Assembly: GCF_963506605.1 (NCBI RefSeq)
Contig: NC_083285.1
Location: forward strand, 27,342,001 to 27,406,000
From: Zootoca vivipara
Lineage: Eukaryota
Reading direction: 5' to 3'
DNA: 64,000 nucleotides
The notes below the pieces were generated by a model. The model had not been told where the DNA came from and did no database searches. It saw nothing but the letters and a program-made list of their open reading frames with translations. The translations under genes and the position numbers were made by a program. Every line of letters starts with the position of its first letter. The first letter of the stretch is position 1. Of the stretch, positions 15,089 through 62,339 are shown piece by piece.

Positions 15089-17211
15089 TTTAGAAGACAT
15101 CTGAAGGCTGCACTGTATAGGGAAGTTTTTAATGTTTGGTGTTTTATGGTGTTTTCATATTTTGCTGGAAGCCGCCCACAGTGGCTGGTATAACCCAGTC
15201 AGATAGGTGGGGTACAAATAATAAAATTGTTGTTGCTGCTGCTGAGGAAAGGAATGAATGAATCTATTTCTCATCTGTATCAATTCCATATCTGGTTTCC
15301 ACATTCACCTTTCATTTCAAAACAATCCTCTCAAAATAGTAGTTAAATGCATATTTTATCTCAAAATACATGTCTATATTCTAATTTTGATGAATTTAAA
15401 GTACCAAGAAGGGTGTGATGGCATCTGGTAAAGTTAGACTGAGAGGTGAGAATCAGGCCATTTTCATATACTGTAGGAAATTAAAAATTTTCATATAGGA
15501 AATTTTTAAAAAAAGACTTGACGGAAGCTATGTCCAATATTCAAGGCTTTTTCACACAGCAGAAAGCAGAGCTACAAATAGATGGCAATTCTGCCTCCTT
15601 TATACCACAGGGATGGCTCTTCTGTCACTCACTTCTCACTCCCTAGGCTAGGGCATGACCCACGCAGGATCAACCTGAATGGATCTCATTAGTCATTTAA
15701 CCTGAAAGCACCGCTTTAAAAAGTTATAACTGGTTATGGGGTCTCCTAGATTTTCAACAGAATTTCAAATATGTCCTGGGAAGCTGAGAACAGAAGGTAG
15801 TGCTACCCATATGCATAACATTTGACTCTTTTTTTCCTCCAACACTGAGGCATCAAAGATCCTTTAAAACCCATTCATTCTCACGCTAAAGCAGCAGAGA
15901 AACCCAGCAGACCTTATTAGGTACATCAGACGCTGAGGAGGACAAAAAGAAACCATACTCCCCAAAGCCTCGTCTGGGATATGTGCAGCTGCCCTTAATG
16001 TTTCTTTGAAATTCCTTTGTTTCAGAGGGAGATCAGGAGATCATGCCCTTTGTACCTCAGTCAGAAATATCAGCTACGGCTGGAACAGAAGGAGCATATT
16101 AAGTTTTGACTCAGCATTCCTGCTAAAATATCAAGCACAAAGATGTTAGAATCCGGACACTGGCCTGCAGAGACCCCGAAGGGGCCAAACTCCTCACTCT
16201 AATAAGTACAGGGAATAAGACATGCTCTGTGGCATGGCTGGATAGCTTAAAATCTGGTACCTTCCAGAGGTTTTTAGATTACAACTCCTATCAGGTGGGT
16301 GGCATCAGGTTGAAGGCTGACAGATCTTGTGAAACAAAGTGCAACCCTACATCAAAAGAATTCTGCTTATTCCTGCACCATTTAGGGGATGGAACATGTG
16401 ATGCAAAAAGAAAAAGGCATTTGAGACCTCCTTTGTGCATATACTTTTACGGCTGAAGAACAGCAAAGCTGAAATAAGGCTCAGGGGCCTGAAGCTTTAA
16501 GAATGCAAGGAGCAGTCACACAAAAACATTCAGGTGGGGCATTAGTAGCTATCTGGATTAAACAGGGCTTGTAAACTTAAAACTCATATCATTAGTAAGA
16601 AGCCAGGCTGCATGTATATTTCAATGGCTGCGTTCAGACAGAAGGTTTACTGTCTTAGTTTTACCTCTCATAATGCTAGTGCTTCTGTTTCAATTTCTAA
16701 TATTTGTTTTACACTGCAGCATCTGATGTGCTATGGAACTGTGGCTTTTTAATCGATATATCGCCATGTTGAGCTAAATTTAAAATGAATAGGAAATAAC
16801 TGTATGCCAGGACACTGCCCCAAATTCTGTCGCATGAGTGGCACCCCCACAGTGCATCCCCACCAACCAACTTTTTCAGTTAATGGGGTTTAAAATTTTC
16901 TGAACAGCTACTAGGTAGGGGCTGTGACAGGAGTGTCAACCAGCTGAATCGCATGTATTTTGGCACTGTGTTCCTGAGTGAGTGAGCCAGCCAGCAAGCC
17001 AGCTGACACACACCTGAATTTTCGGTTGAAAGATGTTGGAGGGTATATCTATATGGGATGCTGCTTAAGTTACCCTTAACTTTATGTTGCTATAGGTGTC
17101 AGTGAGTGTATTCTTACTTCTTCACTTTTGTTATAACAACTCATAGAGGCAGCTTCCAACAGGGAGAGCTGACCCCAGAGTTAGCTCCCAGATAAACCTC
17201 ATATATAAATA

Positions 17212-17400
17212 TAGTGGTACCTCGGGTTACGAACTTAATTTGTTCCAGAGGTCCGTTCTTAACCCGAAACCGTTCTTAACCTGAGGCGTGCTTTCGCTAA
17301 TGGGGCCTCCCGCTGCCACCGCCACACAATTGTCGTTCTCATCCTGGGGCAAAGTTCTCAACCTGAGGTACTACTTCCGGGTTAGCGGAGTCTGTAACCA
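17212..17400. mobile_element. Truncated Tc1/mariner-type MITE, relative of 19136-19582
   Basis: Starts TAGTGGTACCTCGGGTTACGAAC. The internal sequence is the reverse complement of the 19136 element, and the other TIR is missing. Confidence 0.8.
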
Positions 17401-19135
17401 AAAGTTTCAGTTCTGCTGAATGAATGTCCAAATCCACACACACACACCCCTTGCAAAAGAAACAAACATTGATTTCAGACTTAAGGAATTACTGAGTCGA
17501 GTCATGGATCTTCTGCAGCTACGAGAGCTATAAATTCTAGCACAATTTTTACTGCAAAAAACATATTAATAAGAATGCATCACTTTTACATTTCTTTCAC
17601 AGCAACTCGGCTTGTTCTTGTGTATGTTAATAAAACTGGTTTCTTGATTAAGTGCTCCAATCACAGAGATTTCTTGCAGCCCACAGTGGTCTCGTTTAAT
17701 TTATTAAGAGTGTGTAATTTGGTGAGAACAGAAAACTAGTAGAGATGTAATGTGATCAACATGCTCTGCCCCAAATACTTTTTCTACCTAAAACAAAGCC
17801 CACTGGTGCTGGCTGCGTCCCCATCTCAATGGCAGGACTAGCTCAGCCCAGGCTAATTCAGGCACCAGGCACATCCTGAGCTCACCGCAGCCCAGCACTC
17901 TCTTTGCTTTCTGCTGCTGCTCAGTCAAAATGTACATCGTAAGCTGCGTGGGAACTGGGAGCTGTCCTCCCCTACACACACTTATGAAATGCTGCCTAGC
18001 TCCATATAAACCCATGGTACTGACAGTGTATTCCATTATATATTAATAAATACAGAAGGTGTGCACTGAAATGGTGAACACTTTCCCTTCAAAATAAGGA
18101 TCAAGAACATCCTGTATCCACATCAAACTAGAAGTACTGTACGCTAGTCTGATGGTGTGGTAAAAATGTAAGGCCTTTGATGCTTCATAAGTGGTTTTTA
18201 TTGTTGCCTTGAAATGAAGAGCAGGTGGCTGAACTTCATTTTTCTACCCTCATGACTGCTTTGTTGATTATCAGTGTGTTTCAAGGCTTTGTTCTTTTCA
18301 ATTGTCAGAATATCAGGAAAAAAATATTCCAAGTTTTTCTTCTAGTTTTCACAGAGAACTGCTGGCTGTCCACCTGTGTAATATCATCCCAGGAAAGATG
18401 GATGTTTATAAAGAAGTTGACCCTGTTTCACACAGGATTGAAGTAATTGCTATCATGCTGTTCTGGTGTGACACTGGCTTGAATACGGTTTGAGCAGAGA
18501 TTTATATTCCTCAAGCACTCACAATGGGAAGATTAAATAAATCCATGTAAATAAAATCTATTTCAGAAATTATCACTTTCAGCGTTGGAAATGACTGAAT
18601 GTCAACTTTACTCTTTGAAATTTTGAAAATGCTATGATAGCATTATAAAAAGAGATCACTTTCCCTCATATGCTAACTCACCACCATGTTTTGGTCAAAG
18701 AAAATGATGTTTCACTTGACATTCATATTAGGTTATTGCACTTTAAAATGTTAATTAATTTCTAGATGATGGCCTCATGCATAAAAATGTATTGGCAAGA
18801 GTAAATTACTTTTTGAAAGAAAAGAAATCAACAATAAACTGCATTAGACTGGGTAATCAATGTTTATTGAATTTTGTGCTGGAGGCCAGTTTCTCTGTCA
18901 ACAAAGGTCCTTCAAACACAGATTTTCACTTCAGCTTTAATGAACAAGGTTGGAATCATAAATTGAAATAAAATGCAGAAATAATAAACTATTCTTTTCC
19001 TTTTCAAGTCTCACTTGAAAGCAAACTGAAAATACAGCAAAACAGTGTATATGAAACACACATTTATTTATAACATTTCTGTGTATACTGCTTTGAGCAA
19101 ATGCATTATTTTCCTGGCAAAGAAAGCATGAAATA

Positions 19136-19582
19136 CAGTGGTACCTTGAGCTAAAAACGCCTCAGGTTACAAACGCTTCAGGTTACAAACTCCGCTAACC
19201 TGGAAGAGTTACCTCGAGTTGGGAACTTTGCCCCAGGCAGGGCCATCTTAAGCAGCTGTGGCGCCCTGGCGCCGTGATGCAAAGATCCCTCTGGCGCCCC
19301 TCCCCTCCCCGTTTCCCAGTGCAGCTGTCTGGTGGGCACAGCGGGCTGCGCGGCTGCCGCAGGCTCAGCCGCGCAGCACCCCCCCTAGCGGCCTGGCGCC
19401 CTGCGCCACCCAGCCTTGCCGTAGGGCCAGCCCTGGCCCAAGGATGAGAACAGAAATCGTGTGCCAGCGGTGCAGCGGCAGCAAGAGGCCCCATTAGCAA
19501 AAGTACACCTCTAGTTAAGAACAGTTTCAGGTTAAGAAAGGACCTCCGGAACAAATTAAGTTTGTAACCAGAGGTACCACTG
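19136..19582. mobile_element. Tc1/mariner-type MITE with a nested hAT insert
   Basis: TIRs CAGTGGTACCT ... AGGTACCACTG with a TA TSD. Confidence 0.9.
19238..19435. mobile_element. GC-rich hAT-type MITE
   Basis: Ends CAGGGC ... GCCCTG with TSD GCCCCAGG/GCCCAAGG (7/8). The empty site is visible in the sister copy at about 17335-17356. Confidence 0.85.
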
Positions 19583-20087
19583 TAATAATAAAATCTAACT
19601 GAGCTAGATAACAGTGATTTTTTTATATATATAAAAAAACCATTTAGAATTATGTTGCAATTATCATTCAGGTATTCACCAAAACTCAACATTAGTTAGT
19701 TCAGACCAGAATTCTCAGAATGCTCTTAGATCCATCTCATGTTATTTTTTCTGTAATCTGATTACCAACTCAGTAATCGGAGTCTGAGTTACTTTAAAGT
19801 TAATTTATATTTTATGCACTTATGTGGGTTTTTTTGGGGGGGGGGGAGACATACTCTCAAATTTACAGTAACACAAGGTGGTCTTTAGACTCTACTGGAT
19901 TGGAGGCACTTCCAAAAATGTAAGGAGCCCTTCTGTTTACAGAACTGATATTCTGGATCCAACCCACTAAACCTGGCCTGTGGTGCTATTTTTCTAGAAA
20001 AAAAAGAGGTGCTGGAACTCACCATGAACACCTCCCTCATTGTCTTAGAATGGCAACGGCACCCACCTGAGAGGTGCCGGAACTGAG

Positions 20088-30838: not shown

Positions 30839-31390
30839 CAGATCAAGGGAAGTCATAGTACCATTCTATTCCGCCTTAGTCAGACCACACCTGGAATAGT
30901 GTGTCCAGTTCTGGGCACCACAATTTAAAAAGGATGTTGACAAACTGGAACGTGTGCAGAGGAAGGTAACTAGGATGATCAGGGGTCTAGAAGCCAAGCC
31001 TTATGAAGAATGGTTGAAGGAGCTGGGTATATTTAGCCTGGAAAAAGGGAGACTGAGGGGAGATATTATAGCCATCTTCAAATATCTGAAGGGCTATCGC
31101 ATAGAGGATGGAGAAAGCTTGTTTTCTCCTGCTCTGGAAGGTTGGACTCGAACCAATGGCTTCAAGTTGCAGGAAAGGAGATTCCAACTAGACATACAGA
31201 AAAACTTTCTGACAGTAAGAGCCGTTCAACAGTGGAACGGTCTCCCTCAGGAGGTTGTGGACTCTACTTGCTTGGAGGTTCCTAAGCAGAGGTTGAATGG
31301 CCATCTGCCATGGATGCTTTAGCTGAGATTCCTGCATTGTAGTGGGTTGGACTAGAGGACTGTTGGGTCTCTTCCAATTCTATTATTCTA
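30839..31390 (+). mobile_element. CR1 LINE 3' fragment
   Basis: Encodes the CR1 ORF2 C-terminus (ALVRPHLE*CVQFWAP...[16 protein letters not shown]...LEKGRLRGD) and ends in an ATTCTA-type tail. Confidence 0.92.
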
Positions 31391-36023: not shown

Positions 36024-36536
36024 ACAAACCTAGACAGCATCTTAAAAAGCAGAGACATCACCTTGCCGACAAAGGTCTGTATAGTTAAAGCTATGGTTTT
36101 CCCAGGAGTGATGTATGGAAGTGAGAGCTGGACCATAAAGAAGGCTGATCGCCAAAGAATTGATGCTTTTGAATTATGGTGCTGGAGGAGACTTGAGAGT
36201 CCCATGGACTGCAAGAAGATCACACCTATCCATTCTTAAGGAAATCAGCTCCGAGTGCTCACTGAAAGGACAGATTGTGAAGCTGAGGCTCCAATACTTT
36301 GGCCACCTCATGAGAAGAGAAGACTCCCTGGAGTCTGATGTCGGGAAAGATGGAGGGCACAAGGAGAAGGGGATGACAGAGGAAGAGATGGTTGGACAGT
36401 GTTCTCAAAGCCACCAACATAAGTCTGACCAAACTGTGGGAGGCAGTGGAAGACAGGAGTGCCTGGCATGCTCTGGTCCATGGGGTCACAAAGATTCGGA
36501 CACGACTAAATGACTAAACAACAAACAAAAACAACA
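36024..36536 (+). mobile_element. Bov-B (RTE) LINE 3' fragment
   Basis: Encodes TNLDSILKSRDITLPTKVCIVKAMVFP...LRVPWTARRS...LQYFGHLMRREDSLE with frameshifts, and has a CAA-rich tail. Confidence 0.92.
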
Positions 36537-38242
36537 CTACTAGTGTGCGTCTTGTTAAAACTCCAGGGAACTCACCATCCCTTGCTTAAATACAGCTTTG
36601 TGGGGCAAAGCCTTCCCACTACCCTAAATGGTTCACAACTGGCTGTTTCATGTCTATCCTACAGAAAGCAGGACGCAGTAAAAGGAAAGTACTGGGGAGT
36701 GGCAGTGCTGAGATTTTTCTCCAGTTTTCTGGATAATTCCTTCTCTGAACATTCTGAAGAATGTTGCAGTATCCCAGGAGCTCTGTCCTTGTGGACTACT
36801 GAAACCATGCCTAAATAGTGAAGAAATAATCCAAGTTTGGGTCCTGTTCAGAAAGTATAATAATGATATACCAGAAATATACCTCTAAGCTTTCATTTGC
36901 CAAACTCAGCTACTTTAATGTCATCATCCCTCAGAAAGAAGCTTCTCTACTGAAAATGTTCAAAGGATGACACATTTCTAGTTCTTAAAACCCTTGATAC
37001 ATCATATATAGTGGCATGTATAGAAGCCTATTCAGCCTTTTAACTATTAATAGATACTGTTTTGTAAGCTCTATAAAACACTTGGGCTCCCGACATCACA
37101 CTATCATCAACGCAACTTCTACATAACAGTTCAGAAGACTGGCATGCTCAGGAATGCATTTCAGAAAACCAGGATAGCTGTTGCTGGCATGGTGCCATGT
37201 TCCTCCCACATTCCGCTTTGTTTTCTCAATTATAGTGTTCAGTATCTAGGGCACTGCTTTTAAATTTAAGCTAATGCACTGTGATCATATACGAGTTCAT
37301 GCAGGTGAGTAACTTGCCAGGGCCAGTTCCAGATCTGAGTGGGTTGAGTGGGCGAACTGCTCTCAGTTGAGCCCCCTTCTCCATCCCGTGGCTGCAGATG
37401 CTGCAGAAATATGGCAAGGACCAGAAGAGACAAATAACACTGAGGGAAAAGAAGAAGTCTAGGGTCTGGGAGATCAAGAAACAATAAGGCCTGAGTGGAA
37501 GGTTGGGTGGGGAGAGAGAGCAAGACAAAGGGTTGGGAAGAGGTTATGGGATGTAGGGTGAGCTTTTTGCTCTGCACTGCAGAAAAGGAAGGGTTTTTTT
37601 CTATCTTGTCATGGTTCTTTGACACCTGCCTGAAACCACAGCAACACCCCCTGCCTGCCTACTGCTTCCCGCCCGGCCTCTGAAGTGCTATGCTTCTCTA
37701 AGAACAGACTGCAGCGGGAATGTGATCGGTTGAAAGAATCCTGCCTGGAATGAATTCTGATTGGTGCAAGTACACCAATCAGCATAAAACTGGTGTTATT
37801 TTGAAGTGCTTGCAGTAGATTAGTTGTGAGAGTTGGCCCTGAAGAAATCATTCTTTGAAAATTGCAGGAAATAATTGTGTCCCGATTGGCCAGTTTCAAG
37901 GAACAAAAGTCATTTAGAGCATTAGTGTCTCTTGGTGACCTGCCTGAACACTTCTATAGGAAATTGCTTGGAAAAAGGTGACACACACTCTCTCTTTCTC
38001 CTGTGGACTGCAGCAGTGGGGTCAAGCCACAGTATGCTGATACCAGGCAAAGGGGGGAATTGGGCTCAAGCTCAGGGCTTTTAAGGTGGGGTTAGCTGCT
38101 CTTGATGAGGCACCACCCCTTTTTGCCCTTATGCCTTTATTACTGCAAACTGGTGAATTTCCCCTGCAGTGGCGGGCAGCCAGCGCTCCAAACAGGTGGG
38201 TCTAGCTGCTATTTAAATGTACTTCATTATTGTAGAGCAAGG

Positions 38243-38779
38243 TTTGTTGTTGTTGTTGTTTAGTCGTTTAGTCGTGTCCGACTCTTCGTGACCCCATGGA
38301 CCAAAAGCACGCCAGGCACTCCTGTCTTCCACCGCCTCCCGCAGTTTGGTCAAACTCATGTTCATAGCTTCGAGAACACTGTCCAACCATCTCATCCTCT
38401 GTCGTCCCCCTCTCCTAGTGCCCTCAATCTTTCCCAATATCAGGGTCTTTTCCAGGGAGTCTTCTCTTCTCATGAGGTGGCCAAAGTATTGGAGCCTCAA
38501 CTTCAGGATCTGTCCTTCCAGTGAGCACTCAGGGCTGATTTCCTTCAGAATGGATAGGTTTGATCTTCTTGCAGTCCATGGGACTCTCAAGAGTCTCCTC
38601 CAGCACCATAATTCAAAAGCATCAATTCTTCAGCGATCAGGCTTCTTGATGGTCCAGCTCTCACTTCCATACACCACTACTGGGAAAACCATAGCTTTAA
38701 CTATATGGACCTTTGTCGGCAAGGTTATGTCTCTGCTTTTTAAGATGCTGTCTAGGTTTGTCATTGCTTTTCTCCCAGG
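38243..38779 (-). mobile_element. Bov-B (RTE) LINE 3' fragment
   Basis: ORF 38213-38590: RVPWTARRSNLSILKEISPECSLEGQILKLRLQYFGHLMRREDSLEKTLILGKIEGTRRGGRQRMRWLD. (CAA)n tail. Confidence 0.93.
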
Positions 38780-42906: not shown

Positions 42907-43290
42907 CACACACATGATATATATTGAAAATACACACACATCAAGAGAAAGAGAGAGATGCAGACATGCACGTGCACTATTAGAAAAGGTCTGCAATATC
43001 AGTTTACAGCTTAAAGTGCTTTAATAAAAGGCTTGCAACAACAGAAATCAATTAACTGCACCTGAAATATTAACCATGGCTTTGAACCCTGCCTTTCTTT
43101 CATCCTACAAGATCATAAGAGCTTTAAAAAAATCTGCCAGTACATCTATGCAGAAATAAACAGTGTTTCTGAAATTCTTTAATACCTGTGTGAAATACAG
43201 TAGTATTCTGGTCTGCATTAGCATTTCATGCCTAAACGCAATAGTGGACATTTGTCACAGCAACAGAAAACATATTTATACAGTGCTTAC

Positions 43291-43423
43291 TTGGAAAGTG
43301 TTCCGAGGCATAATAATAGACATCCTCATAACCCTCATGATAATCCTCCTCTGGCCGGTACTTTTTGCCTTTTCTCCTCCTCGATCTTCTTATCTGCTTG
43401 ACAAAGCCCAAGAAACGCTCCAT
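43291..43423 (-). CDS. GRIP1: First coding exon (44 codons + 1 nt, phase 1), probably an alternative N-terminal exon of glutamate receptor-interacting protein 1
   Basis: Seen: ATG in strong context (GAGATGG), peptide MERFLGFVKQIRRSRRRKGKKYRPEEDYHEGYEDVYYYASEHFP, a canonical donor CCAA|GTAAGC at 43291/43290, and repeat-poor flanks. Recalled, not searched: this peptide as a GRIP1 isoform N-terminus joining ...ESPYTKSASQ, and that the GRIP1a/b first exons are also phase 1. The exon call is firmer (about 0.85) than the gene name (about 0.6). Confidence 0.65.
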
Positions 43424-46872: not shown

Positions 46873-47964
46873 CTGCATAGCATGCATAATTCACATTGCC
46901 AGTCCTTCAGTGTTCTTTTTCCAGGAAATCACCTTCCCAACTCTTATCCTTTTTTGTTTTGGTCCTAAAACCTGGCCCATATCTCCTGTCACTATGTTTC
47001 CCTCTCTATTCCAAGGGATGCTTTGATTGGCTGAAAGCCATGAGGCCAACTGTGGTGCAGAGGCATACGTATTTATATTAAACATGTAAATAAGGGGCTG
47101 GCCCTTTCAGATAAATGCTTGAAAGTCACTGCAAAATTGCATTCTGAATGCCATAGTGCCAGCCATGCTGTGTGAGGTGAAATACTTTGCCTTACTGTCT
47201 ACAATCTTATCAAGGACTTATCTTCCTCTTTTTAAAAGATGCATGTGTAATTTTAACCCCTTGATTCTATTTGTGTCTCATAAGCAAAATATTTTGCTCT
47301 GTTGGGCCAGCAATGTAAAGAAAGAAAACGAAACCCATTATTCACACATGATGTATGACAGCAACTATTTATACTATTAAATATGTTTTGAAACATATTT
47401 CAGGGTAACAGAGAACAAGGAGAATAATTCAAGTCTGAAAACATAAAATAAATTTATGGACTCCCAGGAGATCATCTCTACACAATGTTTAGTGTGAAGA
47501 ATGAAAGCTAATTAGATGTCTAATGATCTGCATGACATTTTGTGAGCGCCACACATGGTTTCTGCAGCATAAGTTCTTTTGCGAAAGGATGGAAGCTAGA
47601 AAAGGGTAAACCACAGCCAATTACACATGCTCTAAGTCAAAGAGATGTGGCAGTTGCAACATTATATGTTTAGAAAATATCTGCTCATAAGGCAGAGGAG
47701 CCTGCAGTGAAACCATTTAAATGCAATAACAAACAAGAAGTTAGACATATTCTGATACAGACCATATAATTATTGTGTCCTCACTTATATTTTACTGTAG
47801 TATCCAGTATTCAATATTTTCATTACATGCCTTGCAGTCCATTCAATTAAATATTTTAATTCCAATGCAAGCTTTGATCAGTGGATCCTGTAACCACTCC
47901 CTTCAGTTTCTCATGCTAACATATATTTCCATCACTGGAACAGGGTGGTGGGGCTACTTAATTA

Positions 47965-48253
47965 CAGTGGTGCCTCGACTTACAAATTTAATCCATTCCG
48001 AAGGCACCTTCGTAGGTCACAAAAGTCGAAAAGTGCCATTGGAAACGCGATTTCCCATAGGAATGCATTGGAAACGGAAAAATTCGTAAGTCGAAGCAAC
48101 CCCATCTAAAAATTCATAAGTAAAAAAAAACCTATCTAAAACCGCAGTGGTTTCCGTTCGGATGTCAAGAAATTCGTAAGCGTGCAGCCATTTGCCCCAC
48201 TCGTAAGTTGAAAAATTCGGTTGTCGAGTCGTTCATAAGTCGAGGTACCACTG
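47965..48253. mobile_element. Tc1/mariner-type MITE, inverted relative of 13883-14180
   Basis: TIRs CAGTGGTGCCTCGACTTA/TAAGTCGAGGTACCACTG with a TA TSD. Confidence 0.9.
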
Positions 48254-48606
48254 TATATAGTTACCAAACAGTAGCTATGGTAAATAAGAGGATGTGGGAT
48301 CATTAAAAGCAAAAGAGCACACTAAAAAGACAGAGGCGGAGAGGTTTTATGCTAGTAAAAACAGAGCCACCCTTTACTGATCTTCAGCCCGGCTACAAGT
48401 TTCACTTGGTACCTCTTCCTCTTGAGTAGGCACCTCCTGCATCTCCCATCAGGCCTGTCTTTTGTCTAGCCCCGGGGCCTAGAAAGGGGAGGTCTAGGTC
48501 TACAGTGCAGTGTAGGGGCTCATTTGGGGTCCCAAGTGTTAAATGCTTGTGTGATCAGGTGATCCAGGGTGTTCCCACACCTATTTCTCAGATAAGGGCC
48601 GCCACA

Positions 48607-48892
48607 TGGAAGTTGGAGCAAGCTTTTTTTCTCCTGCTCTGGAGGCTAGGACCCAAACCAATGGATTCAAGTTACAAGAAAGAAGATTCTGGCTAACTAT
48701 CAGGAAGAACTTTCTGAAAGTAAGAGCTGTTCGACAAAGGAAAAGACTCCCCAAAGACGCAGTAGACTCTCCTTCCTTGGAGGTTTTGAAGCAGGGGCTG
48801 GATGGCCATCGGTAGTGTATGATCTAGTTGAGATTCCTGCATTACAGCGGGGCTCTCAGGGTCCCTTCCAACTCTACAATTCTATGATTCTG
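48607..48892 (+). mobile_element. CR1 LINE 3' fragment
   Basis: [30 protein letters not shown]..., matching the 3' half of 30839-31390, with an ATTCTATGATTCTG tail. Confidence 0.9.
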
Positions 48893-51800: not shown

Positions 51801-52200
51801 TTTTCTGATATTTAAAGAAGCATGAGATGACTTACATTTTAAGAAACACAGGTTGCCACATAGCAGCTTAGTTCAGGTGTTACATTCCTAGTCTACTAGT
51901 CTAGCATACCATGGTTTGTTGGAGTGAGAATGTGCAATGAGCACAGGTGGTTCCTTCTCCTTCCTGCCTTACTCCTCTCAAGCACCCAACTGCAGAGAGA
52001 CTCCCTGGATTGCTAAATGAGTTTCTCCTAACGTCTTACTTAGGAAGTGTTGTTTAAGGGCACATCACACAGACTATGATTGCAAAATACAAATTGATTC
52101 TAGCTTACAATCCTGGTTTGTAGAGAGTGCTTCAACCAGTTTCCCAGTGTGCAGCCTTAGTGAATCATTGCAATGCTACAATTTACAGTTGCAGGAGTTA

Positions 52201-52466
52201 CAGTGGTGCCTCGCTAGACGAATTTAATTCATTCCACGGGTCAAATCGTATAACGAAAAATTCGTCTAGCGAATCCCATAGGAATGCATTGAATTTTTTT
52301 TAAAAAAATTAATTGAAATTTCAATGCATTCCTATGGGAAACCGCGATTCGCTAGACGAATTTTTCACAAAACAAATTTGTCTTGCGAGGCAACCTCCGC
52401 TCAAAAAATCTCTTCGTTAAGCGAAAAATTCGTCTTACAGGGCATTCATCTAGCGAGGTACCACTG
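52201..52466. mobile_element. Tc1/mariner-type MITE, sister of 5384-5670
   Basis: TIRs CAGTGGTGCCTCGCTAGA/TCTAGCGAGGTACCACTG with a TA TSD. Confidence 0.9.
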
Positions 52467-52565
52467 TAAATGCAAGTGTCAACTCTCATACAGGAATCAG
52501 TTGATCTGTAATTTTATGTGCCTACTGGTTTAGACTTAAGCACACATCAGTGACCCCGAGCATTA

Positions 52566-52717: not shown

Positions 52718-55640
52718 GTCTAAGGTGTTGTTATCTCCAAGTGCTTATAAATCCTGAATTAGGATACCTCAGAAATAGGGCACTTGCACAGAGAGATATT
52801 CAAAAGCTTCTTACTTGCACTAGATTTTAAATGCTTAAGGTAAACACAAGCCAATTTTTCAAGCTTCACTACCCAACTGAGAGAGCTGCAAATGTTTTTT
52901 TTTTTGCATTCAGTTTAGATCGTAAGATTCATGATAAAATAACAGTGTCTGAAATTGAGTAGGCATTGTTTGTGTCCATAAATATTTAGATATTGATGCT
53001 GGAATATCAGGATCTTAGTCAACAACCTGTTTGCCATGTTTCAGTTTTAAATATGATTTTTCTACAATAGTAGCCTAAAATGAGAGAAACTCTAGTGAAG
53101 AGGAAATAATCTCATATTGGTAAAAAGAATAAGCTGAGCTGTAGGGGTTTACAACACAATGCTTTTTGGAAGCTAAGGATGACTGTTTGACATTTCATTT
53201 TCTAAGAAGTCTAAACAACCACAATAAATTTACAAATGTAGGCATGCCATACTGTTAAATTTCATTTCACGCTCAGTAAGCAAACATTACCAAACTGTCG
53301 TCCTCAGTCTTTTTAGCTAGAAATCTTGTAGCCAATAAAGATTTGACCTTGAAATATTTCACAGAAGGATAAATTGGCTTAGTTTGCTAGTCACTCTTTT
53401 AAAGAATCTGCTGGCCAGCAAGGTAAGATTGTGTTTACTATTGCATTATCACATGATACTGGGCAAAACCTAACTTAACCATCCATACCAATCAAACATA
53501 CACATCATATGGATGTACTGAGCACTGAATCAGATCAGGAAATATGTGTTTCCTAAGAGCTTTTAATACTTACTTTATTATAATAGAGAAGCATTTACAT
53601 TTCTACAGCCAAAGAACACACGTAGCTTTATAGGAAAAGATCATTAACTACTGCAAGTCCCTGTTCATCAGTTTTTGCTTTGAGTGCATCTACACATCAA
53701 AAAGAAAAATGCCCTTGTCTTATTTACTCAAGGGATGTTTATGCTATCTTAGCAAAGCAGTAATTCATTTGAAATATTGCACCACAGTAGCAGTGCAAAT
53801 TTGGAAAACAAATACAGAAGATGGAGCCATTTGCTTATTTGCATTACTCAATAACTGAGTTTATAAATGTGATCCATTTATATTGTTATTTCCTCACTAT
53901 TACGGTATTATAACACCATGGATTAAATTCAAGCTTACAAATACTTGTATATTATCAACATACACATAGACAAAATAAACAACTAAATACAGTATAAAAA
54001 AAACTTTTAGTTGGATATGTTGCAATACTGTAAAACATTATTTATTTAAGAAATTTATATTCTCCCTTTCAAAAAAAATTAAAAATCTTCAGGGTGAACA
54101 TAGAAAGCTGCTGGTCCATCTAGTTTAGAACTGTTTACTCTGACTGACAGGTTTCAAGCTATAGTTCCTGCCCCCCCCCCGTCCTATCTGGAGATACTAG
54201 AGATTGAGCATGGGAATTTCTACAGAAGGGGGGTGGGCTGTGTGGAGCCCAAACAATGGTGCAAATTTGGGTGATTTGGGAGTCTCCCTCTCCCTCCCAA
54301 GCATGATATCAATAAACACCCGACTCGAATCAAGGCCCTCGCAAAGCCTCATGCCACTCTGCCATTTCTGTCATTTTATGCATCCTTTGCGCCCCCGCCC
54401 CCCATTTCTTTGTTTCTCTGGTCCACAGGCTTTGCATAAAATGAAGCTGACCAATATATTGCCTGAGGAGCATTGAAAAGTTCTTTATTGTTGTTTGTTT
54501 GTTTGTTAAAACACAGTACTGGGTTTTTTTATAGAAAGCTTCATTTTTTTAAATAAATAAATCATACATTGCTCTTTTAACAACAACAGATCTGCACAGG
54601 GAACATTTTGCAAACCTATCAGAGGACATAAGGACCCAAAAAGAAAGAATCAGTATGAAGATTTTATATATATTAAATGCACACGAAAGAACACAAACCA
54701 CTTGGCAACCTCCTAATTATTTAAGGTAAGGAAGAGCAAGAGGCAACCCCTTGCCAAGGGATCATGGAGGGAAATGAGTATGTCTTACTGCCTTCGCACA
54801 AAGCCCATGGACCAATTTGCCTGAAATTTGGCAGACTTAAATCAATTTTCTCATGGGGCTCTTGTGCCTATAAATTTCACCCACTTTGGCCCAAAGGAGA
54901 GAAAAAAACAATGTTGTCATTCCTAGAGCTTGGAAAGGTATTATTTCATTTCATATTTTAAAGCAAGCTTACCCAATTCACACTTCCTGAATCAAAACAC
55001 AAAGCAAACCTCAAATATCATTTGAAATTTGCATTCTCTGAATTGCTCTCCAACCAAAAAATTAATACTAAAAAAAAAATCACATATATTATTAGGGGAA
55101 AGTTCATGGGGAAATGTGTATATTTGTAAACAAAATGTTTAAAGTACATTATATCAGATAAAATTGCTTTCAAAAGTGTGTGTATTAGAAAATGCACATG
55201 ACATACATGTTGACTTTAAAAAAAAAAATGCAAAATGAGGCAGAAATAGAACAAACAGAGCTTTTCTGAAGGAAGAGAAATATCAGAAGTCCTTTAGGCC
55301 ACTTACTAGTATTCCAAGCTCAGTTTTACAGTACCTTGCATTCAAAGTGTGTAATGCTTGCATTTATTGTTTCCCTGGACTTAATGATCCAATATTAACA
55401 AAATCAAAGAACCCATGTCCTAAAAAAAGTCGCCCATTCAGTACCCTGAAATTAGTTTCAAAAGTGCATTGATTGGCCCAGGAAACTTTCTTCTGATTCA
55501 TATATCAGAGTGGACTGCTTGAATTTAAAAGAGTTACGCTTAATGAATGTTTTTATGTAGCTACACTTGCCAAATAATTTTCCCCTGAAGAAGAACTTTA
55601 CAGCTTGAAATGTGCTCAGATATTGAACTTGGTTCAATAA

Positions 55641-56049
55641 CAGGTAGGTAGCCGTGTTGGTCTGAGTCGAAGCAAAATAAAAAAATTCATTCAGTAGCAC
55701 CTTAAACACCAACTAAGTTTATATTTTGGTATGAGCTTTCGTGTGCATGCACACTTCTTCAGATGTGCATGCACACTTCTTCAGAGCTTTTTGCATGCAC
55801 ACGAAAGCTCATACCAAAATATAAACTTAGTTGGTCTTTAAGGTGCTACTGAAGGAATTTTTTTATTTTGCTTCGACTCAGACCAACACGGCTACCTACC
55901 TGTAACTAGAACTATGGAAGGCACCACATTGAACCGCATGAAATGGAAGTCCATCTTGGTATCTGAAGAAGTGTGCATGCACACGAAAGCTCATACCAAA
56001 ATATAAACTTAGTTGGTCTTTAAGGTGCTACTGAAGGAATTTTTTTATT
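55641..56049 (+). mobile_element. Short non-autonomous or truncated Penelope-like element (inverted plus direct pseudo-LTR repeats)
   Basis: An inverted copy (55641-55751) is followed by two direct copies (55792-55902 and about 55974-56049) of one unit. It carries a hammerhead motif and a 12-bp flanking duplication TTGGTTCAATAA (55629-40, 56050-61). Confidence 0.8.
55956..55999 (+). ncRNA. Minimal type I hammerhead ribozyme motif
   Basis: Stem I TTGGTAT (55956-62)/ATACCAA (55993-99). Core CTGAAGA at 55963-69. Stem II is the palindrome GTGTGCATGCACAC (55971-84). GAAA at 55985-88. Vestigial stem III AGCT. Predicted cleavage after C55992. Confidence 0.8.
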
Positions 56050-56372
56050 TTGGTTCAATAAATCTTCATGCACCTTCTGCAATTTTCTGTGCAACAATAT
56101 TTAAGGCTAGTCACAAATATGCATCTTGAACTGAAGAGGGGAATGAAAACCAATCTGGTATGTGTTTGATTTGGCATGGGAAAGTATCTGGAAGGGAAAG
56201 GATTATGCACCCGTCACTTCTGTGCTTAAAATCACACACCACGCCCTACTAGAACTGTTAGCAACAATAGCATTTGGCTCTGTTGCATGCATTTTGTGCA
56301 TAGTTTTCCCTTAAAGAGTTGCTCCAGCTAATAAAACCCCTGCTCCTTTTTGGTCTGCTTGTCTTTATCTTA

Positions 56373-61670: not shown

Positions 61671-61838
61671 GACCAGACTGCACTTTATACCTGAAGTGTG
61701 CACAAATGGGGTCTCAATATTCTCCATCTAATTTTTAGGTAAAAGAATTGGTATGGGGCATTTTGCCAAATTTATGCAACTGGAGGAAGCATAATTTGGG
61801 GGTAGTGTCCCCATTTGTAGTGGCAGTAGCAGAGGTTA

Positions 61839-62081
61839 CAGTGGTACCTTGGTTTTTGAATGTAATCCATTTCGGAAGACCATTCCGAGTTCTGAAACGT
61901 TCGAAAACTGAAAATTCAATAGCCGACACCTCGGCCTCAGGATCTTGCACTCAGTGGAAGCTGCGTGGCATGTTCAATTTCTGAGGCGTGTTCGAAAACC
62001 GAAGCATTTACTTCCAGGTTTACGGCATTTGAAAACCGAAATGTTAGTCAATGGAGCCGTTCGAAAACCAATGTACCACTG
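61839..62081. mobile_element. Tc1/mariner-type MITE
   Basis: TIRs CAGTGGTACCTTGGTTTTTGAA/TTCGAAAACCAATGTACCACTG. Confidence 0.85.
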
Positions 62082-62339
62082 TGTTTCATGTCCTAGGGAC
62101 TTTTGTTTTGCTGCTGCTGCTGCTACAAGCAATTGTGTTTGCAGCCAGCTACCAATTTGTACCCTTCACAATACTCTAGATCAGGCATTGTTCTGGAGCA
62201 TTGGGGTAGGCAGGTGGGGTTGTAGCCCACACAGAAAGAAAACATCAATCGATCGATATTTTGGGAAAATTCTGCAAAGTTATTTTTCTTTTTCCTCAGG
62301 GGAGCTAAGAAAGAGCAGTGACAGAAACTGTCTCAGAAA

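What the first reader, a model, noticed from the sequence alone, without database searches (positions are those of the whole stretch)
55956..55999. Intact minimal hammerhead ribozyme in a Penelope-like insertion
Seen: all conserved core residues (CUGAAGA, GAAA, UC), a 7-bp stem I, a self-complementary stem II, and stem III reduced to the palindrome AGCU. Established: Penelope-like elements carry such minimal type I hammerheads in their pseudo-LTRs, and these are thought to cleave as dimers through the palindromic stem III. A second plus-strand half copy (stem II-GAAAGCUCAUACCAA, 55792-55817, lacking CUGAAGA) lies about 180 nt upstream and could pair with it. Inference: a possibly active self-cleaving RNA about 12.5 kb upstream of the exon. 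The complete copy is antisense to the host gene.
Basis: partly seen in the sequence, partly recalled or inferred. Interest (0 to 1): 0.7.

Follow-up and report, generated by a model that had tools for sequence, protein, structure and literature searches.

The report
Ordinary Penelope hammerhead in lizard intron
This self-cutting RNA motif is real, but its core is one of about 17,000 identical copies spread by a Penelope-type jumping gene in a lizard genome, and this copy, lying backwards in a GRIP1 intron with its would-be partner predicted to be locked in a long hairpin, is likely inactive: an ordinary insertion.

Summary
The motif at 55956-55999 is there as described, plus an unpaired A between core and stem II that is typical of Penelope minimal hammerheads. 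It is the 3' unit of a 410-bp fragment of a Neptune-type Penelope-like element with an 11-bp target duplication, in intron 1 of one GRIP1 isoform. The 34-nt core has 17,230 exact copies in the genome and the 44-mer has 357. A sister subfamily (96% identical) has full-length 901-aa RT + GIY-YIG ORFs. Three corrections. (1) Native stem I is 4 bp; the extra 3 bp are junction bases. (3) A dimer with the half copy would cut only at C55810. At family level, about 0.7% of copies begin at the predicted cut site, while 31 of 48 truncated copies begin just 5' of the core. Cleavage is untested. The scan noted the same kind on other lizard DNA. Known class (Cervera and De la Pena 2014); low interest.

The parts
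55629..55639 (.). Target-site duplication, left copy (11 bp)
   Evidence: Identical to 56050-56060
55640..55764 (-). Inverted pLTR copy with a complete hammerhead core (starts 55762, C17 at 55733) but only 2 bp of stem I; sense to GRIP1
   Evidence: (I4, I6); folding it as a hammerhead costs +34.6 kcal/mol in context
55765..55791 (-). Inversion junction: a second short copy of core + stem II (55765-55784) and 7 further bases
   Evidence: Sequence
55792..55913 (+). Half copy: starts inside the stem II palindrome, has GAAA-GC-UC (C17 at 55810) and the rest of the pLTR; lacks CUGAAGA
   Evidence: 96.3% to the autonomous copy over 55792-55955
55914..55955 (+). First 14 codons of the element's ORF (the 'tail' end of this unit)
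   Evidence: 13 of 14 residues match the start of the 901-aa ORF
55956..55958 (+). Three junction bases that extend stem I from 4 to 7 bp
   Evidence: Absent from native upstream sequence of all subfamilies seen; ten other copies with these bases all have different upstream sequence
55959..55999 (+). Complete minimal hammerhead motif: core 55963-55969, extra A 55970, stem II 55971-55984, GAAA 55985-55988, predicted cut after C55992; antisense to GRIP1
   Evidence: 17,230 exact copies of the 34-nt core
56000..56049 (+). Rest of the 3' pLTR unit, ending in the T-rich stretch
56050..56060 (.). Target-site duplication, right copy
43289..43423 (-). GRIP1 alternative first coding exon (context only); another first exon lies about 77 kb beyond the motif, so the insertion is intronic for that isoform
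   Evidence: upstream exon in L357, 18 of 18 residues

Best explanation
The motif is the minimal hammerhead of a Neptune-type Penelope-like retrotransposon's pseudo-LTR, carried in a 410-bp truncated insertion in a GRIP1 intron, and this copy is likely catalytically silent in place. Shown: the insertion has a target duplication and three pLTR pieces (inverted, half, complete), and the family has intact RT + GIY-YIG relatives. Inferred origin: the element's RT began in the pLTR, ran off an RNA end just 5' of the uncut hammerhead, added or picked up three bases, re-started at the ORF-start 'tail', then folded back at the stem II palindrome to make the inverted arm. Predicted behaviour: GRIP1 pre-mRNA reads the complete motif in antisense and folds the inverted and half copies into a 112-bp hairpin, so the sense core cannot form. 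A plus-strand transcript would leave the complete motif as a monomer with no helix III, which would need a second copy or the element's protein to cut.
For: TSD and anatomy. 17,230 exact cores and 20,065 exact 3' flanks genome-wide. Five of seven fetched candidate loci hold an uninterrupted 901-aa ORF; the one scanned has RVT_1 (E 2.4e-10) and GIY-YIG (E 5.9e-5) and the C-X4-C-X2-C linker of Neptune/Nematis. Folding: 112-bp hairpin on both strands; dimer +82.4 and minus-strand core +34.6 kcal/mol. Single min-HHRs showed no detectable cleavage in vitro (PMC4209133); the Anolis PLE hammerhead cuts only with protein (PMC11167929); 8 of 9 Xenopus dimers gave no product (bioRxiv 2026.07.22.740005). 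No reads on the unique flanks in two RNA runs, about 6% of each read.
Against: No cleavage assay. ViennaRNA ignores the core's tertiary energy and co-transcriptional kinetics. The isolated 44-mer does form stems I and II as its best fold (-12.7 kcal/mol, z -2.7), better than the native 4-bp form (-7.6, z -0.2), so this copy is better pre-folded than its parent. The RNA runs are of unknown tissue and shallowly read. No full-length copy of the window's own subfamily was among the loci fetched; the intact ORFs belong to a 96%-identical sister. The RT path is inferred from junctions only.
Confidence: 0.85

Rival explanations
1. The complete copy is an active ribozyme in a plus-strand (antisense to GRIP1) transcript, helped by its longer stem I, by a second transcript pairing in trans through AGCU and the stem II palindrome, or by the element's protein.
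For: Core intact and identical to that of the autonomous copies; stems I and II form in isolation; across 47 native copies changes concentrate at position 7, the one free core position (9 changes), so the family motif looks selected for function; family pLTR RNA is present in RNA runs.
Against: No helix III in a monomer; monomer fold only about 0.2% of the ensemble in full context; the promoter-like upstream sequence of native copies is missing here; no reads on the unique flanks (weak).
Confidence: 0.08
2. One reading: the half copy pairs with the complete copy in cis to give a dimeric hammerhead.
For: Both AGCU palindromes are intact, and all 16 pairs of the dimer are Watson-Crick.
Against: +13.4 kcal/mol in 55790-56050 and +82.4 in the full insertion. 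The inverted arm is transcribed first on the plus strand. Only the C55810 site would have a complete core.
Confidence: 0.03
3. The 182-nt unit is a non-autonomous retrozyme that is excised by two hammerheads, circularised and re-inserted.
For: Unit length is close to the reptile mean of 176 bp (bioRxiv 2026.07.22.740005); the search lists 40 near-full-length matches to this 1.5-unit arrangement at 93-100% identity, the window included.
Against: The junction between units differs from copy to copy and lies at the ORF start and the foot of stem I, not at the cut site; only one complete plus-strand core here, below that paper's criterion of two; about 0.7% of copies begin at the cut site.
Confidence: 0.04

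Closest known systems
Minimal type I hammerheads (min-HHR) in pLTRs of metazoan Penelope-like elements (Cervera and De la Pena 2014, PMC4209133; parts 1-2 of 4 of the text read, supplements not seen)
   Same: Core, extra nucleotide between 9 and 10.1, G10.1-C11.1, long helix II, native helix I of 4 bp, palindromic remnant of helix III, thousands of single or opposite-strand copies; reported there for turtles and snakes.
   Different: This copy has a 7-bp helix I from junction bases; 17,230 cores are identical, whereas the paper stresses sequence variability.
EN+ Penelope-like elements of Neptune/Nematis type (PMC8557442, passages read)
   Same: [quoted passage not shown]
   Different: The window holds only pLTR pieces and 14 codons; Neptune versus Nematis was not separated by a tree.
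PAc, Poseidon element of Anolis carolinensis (PMC11167929, parts 1-2 of 4 read)
   Same: Lizard PLE with a pLTR hammerhead, internal RT start near the ORF beginning, no RNA ends seen at the cut site.
   Different: Different clade; there the ORF starts in stem II, here about 105 nt after the cut site.
Non-LTR retrozymes (PMC7229834 passages; bioRxiv 10.64898/2026.07.22.740005 parts 1-3 of 5)
   Same: Short pLTR-derived units with type I hammerheads in tandem.
   Different: One complete core per strand, variable junctions, minimal rather than canonical motif.

Membership tests
PLE minimal hammerhead | Conserved core CUGANGA, GAAA, UH | tested here: met
PLE minimal hammerhead | Extra nucleotide between A9 and G10.1; G10.1-C11.1 pair; long helix II | tested here: met
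   A55970; G55971-C55984; 14-nt palindrome
PLE minimal hammerhead | Helix III absent or reduced to a palindrome | tested here: met
   AGCU 55988-55991; no helix III in predicted folds
PLE minimal hammerhead | Located in the pLTR of an RT + GIY-YIG element | tested here: met
   Same motif 3,030 bp apart flanking 901-aa ORFs in L062, L063, L064, L065
PLE minimal hammerhead | Self-cleavage | not testable with these tools
   No assay; no read ends at the site, which are weak for ends
Neptune/Nematis-type EN+ PLE | RT followed by C-terminal GIY-YIG in one ORF | tested here: met
   Pfam RVT_1 432-577, GIY-YIG 799-840 in L062; not in the window itself
Neptune/Nematis-type EN+ PLE | CX2-5CxxC linker, DKG motif, two cysteines inside GIY-YIG | tested here: met
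   Read from the translation against PMC8557442
Neptune/Nematis-type EN+ PLE | Placement in the Neptune clade by RT phylogeny | not tested
   No reference set at hand; Neptune is preferred because the bioRxiv survey found only Neptune and Poseidon in vertebrates
Non-LTR retrozyme | [quoted passage not shown] | tested here: not met
   One complete plus-strand core; the upstream unit lacks CUGAAGA
Non-LTR retrozyme | Circular RNA monomer | not testable with these tools
   No suitable data

The most novel reading that the evidence does not exclude
At family level, the genome records that Penelope RT copies uncut RNA: insertions start at an RNA 5' end a few bases before the hammerhead core (likely the transcription start, below a TATA-like and Inr-like sequence), rarely at the cut site, and the hammerhead's own palindromes serve as fold-back primers that build the inverted pLTR. 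The motif would then shape insertions as a structure rather than as a cutter of the template.
Probability: 0.35. Interest if true: 0.5.

Novelty: new member of a known kind. Interest (0 to 1): 0.13.

Why it matters
This copy matters little: a core like it occurs on average every 84 kb in this genome. If it did cut, it would be an antisense ribozyme inside a neuronal scaffold gene, but nothing points that way. The family is more useful. PMC8557442 calls the function of PLE hammerheads unclear, and a young family with about 20,000 near-identical copies and intact ORFs allows a full census of where insertions begin relative to the cut site.

Tried and rejected
Rfam at gathering and at E<=10 gave no hammerhead hit. 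My first motif scan found nothing because it lacked the extra nucleotide; corrected. No solved structure matched the 901-aa protein. The Atlas gave only RT/GIY-YIG clusters. No RNA holder was listed for the stretch, which is no evidence on expression. Read pile-ups: none at the cut site in X20-X22, but fragmented Illumina reads show ends poorly. Insertion polymorphism: contigs of X17 and X19 run 23-25 bases from the unique flanks into the element, below the tool's 31-letter bar, and one run may be the window's source; suggestive of presence only. The 5' tally double-counted overlapping loci (125 rows) and was redone without duplicates (98 copies). A cap-derived G was considered but not established: 10 of 30 G copies have CAG, mostly the end of an inverted arm, and in 6 the G belongs to the apparent target duplication. 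Templated fold-back as source of the three junction bases: only modest excess (907 of 2,075, then 357 of 907, against T 0.27), so chance or AT-rich targets suffice. Literature searches listed no paper on this lacertid family or on a genomic census of cut-site starts; supplements of PMC4209133 were not seen and may list the motif. Look-up of earlier notes near this place was empty.

Full report
Observation. The sequence at 55956-55999 has a 7-bp stem I, CUGAAGA at 55963-55969, an unpaired A55970, a palindromic stem II, GAAA, GC and UC with the predicted cut after C55992. Folded alone it forms stems I and II but no helix III. The extra A is a listed feature of Penelope minimal hammerheads (PMC4209133). 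Rfam does not detect the motif. The half copy is 182 nt upstream.

The whole insertion. It spans 55640-56049 between two copies of an 11-bp target duplication. From left to right: an inverted pLTR (55640-55764) with a complete core but a 2-bp stem I; a short junction; the half copy starting inside the stem II palindrome and running through the pLTR into the first 14 codons of an ORF; three junction bases; the complete motif and the rest of the pLTR. The inverted copy pairs with the half copy over 112 nt at 98%.

Host context. The exon 12.5 kb away is an alternative first coding exon of GRIP1 on the minus strand, with lacertid proteins as the best full-length matches. A further first exon lies about 77 kb beyond the motif (200 kb fetched), so the insertion is in intron 1 of that isoform. 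The complete motif is antisense to GRIP1 and the inverted one is sense.

Family. The 34-nt core has 17,230 exact matches in 1.44 Gb, the 26-nt 3' flank 20,065 and the 44-mer 357; reversed controls gave 0. Of seven candidate regions fetched, five hold an uninterrupted 901-aa ORF, in units of 3,030 bp. The ORF scanned has RT and C-terminal GIY-YIG domains and the linker and cysteine motifs of Neptune/Nematis elements. It is 96.3% identical to the window over 164 bp. No full-length copy of the window's own subfamily was among the fetched loci. In 47 native copies from an unbiased set, upstream sequence falls into several subfamilies while the motif is kept; position 7 has 9 changes, the stem I base next to the core 4, and no other position more than 2. 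This fits selection on the motif in the lineage, not on this copy.

Stem I. In autonomous and other native copies the base before the 4-bp arm is almost always U, which cannot pair. Copies with G there number 2,075, with A or C 1,022, with UG 907 and with UUG 357. Ten UUG copies examined all had different upstream sequence. The 7-bp stem is therefore a junction product found in about 2% of cores. The G excess is about 4.5-fold over base composition but has several possible sources (cap, inverted-arm end, target microhomology) that I could not separate.

Can this copy cut? In the dimer model each core uses its own CUGANGA and GAAA and the partner's UH (inference from the model described in PMC4209133), so pairing with the half copy would cut only at C55810. 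Forcing that fold costs 13.4 kcal/mol in 55790-56050 and 82.4 in the full insertion; the monomer fold costs 3.7; the minus-strand core costs 34.6 (free folds). These models omit tertiary energy. Published tests: a single min-HHR showed no detectable activity; the Anolis element's motif cuts only with its protein, and its mutants do not affect insertion in vitro; 8 of 9 Xenopus dimers did not cut. In two RNA runs, about 6% of each read, family pLTR reads were abundant, 94-96% running on into unlike sequence, but none lay on this locus's unique flanks; this is weak evidence.

Where copies begin. Copies with a non-C at the cut position number 359, at the next base 161 and at the previous base 139. 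Inspecting the first listed loci, 28 of 73, 37 of 51 and 30 of 49 were junctions rather than point changes, giving about 138 (98-181), 117 (94-135) and 85 (64-104) of 20,065. Ten of the 37 look by eye like another element inserted at a TA; without them the second figure is about 85. An excess of up to about 1.6-fold at the cut site is thus not excluded, and several of those junctions show microhomology. In 98 distinct copies from the first 3.2 Mb of one contig, 50 keep native upstream sequence, 31 begin just 5' of the core, 11 in the core or stem II, 5 within 2-14 nt of the cut and 1 within 0-1 nt. No read pile-up was seen at the cut site on a full-length copy.

Comparison and verdict. It works like, and by every sequence feature tested is, a PLE minimal hammerhead; catalysis is untested. 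It fails the two-complete-units criterion for a retrozyme. The class, its presence in reptiles and the inverted and tandem layout are published, and the scan has noted the same on other lizard DNA. The copy is an ordinary, likely silent insertion. Interest 0.13. The family-level junction pattern is the only part worth pursuing.

Noticed in passing
G000, e.g. L100, L104, L111-L113, L116, L313, L315, L320, L327: Ten pLTR copies appear interrupted by another element at the TA just after the hammerhead cut site; in L112/L113 the same insertion is in both inverted arms.
   Followed up: no
G000, e.g. L070, L072, L083, L092: A subfamily with native upstream sequence carries U instead of C at the cleavage position (5 of 5 copies); another varies at core position 7.
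   Followed up: partly
L062:815-855 and other native copies: All subfamilies keep a TATA-like word about 30 nt before an Inr-like word just 5' of stem I (motif names recalled); may be the element's promoter.
   Followed up: partly
L021-L023, L218 (G000:C1:2776500-2780400): Tandem array of 598-bp internally deleted units, each with a complete hammerhead core; a better retrozyme candidate than the window copy.
   Followed up: no
window 5381-5676, 17204-19590, 47962-48258, 52198-52472, 61836-62086 and others: Many copies of a short-terminal-inverted-repeat DNA transposon family flanked by TA.
   Followed up: no
window 36024-38761: Two long inverted arms (about 500 bp, 87-95%) with LINE-like RT fragments (ORFs 36139-36513, 38213-38629); would form double-stranded RNA in the GRIP1 intron.
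   Followed up: no
window 30900-31322: CR1-like LINE 3' ORF fragment (label recalled); related copy near 48594-48851.
   Followed up: no
L062 protein residues 541-545: This full-length ORF has Asn in place of the second catalytic Asp of the RT motif, while L061 has both Asp.
   Followed up: no
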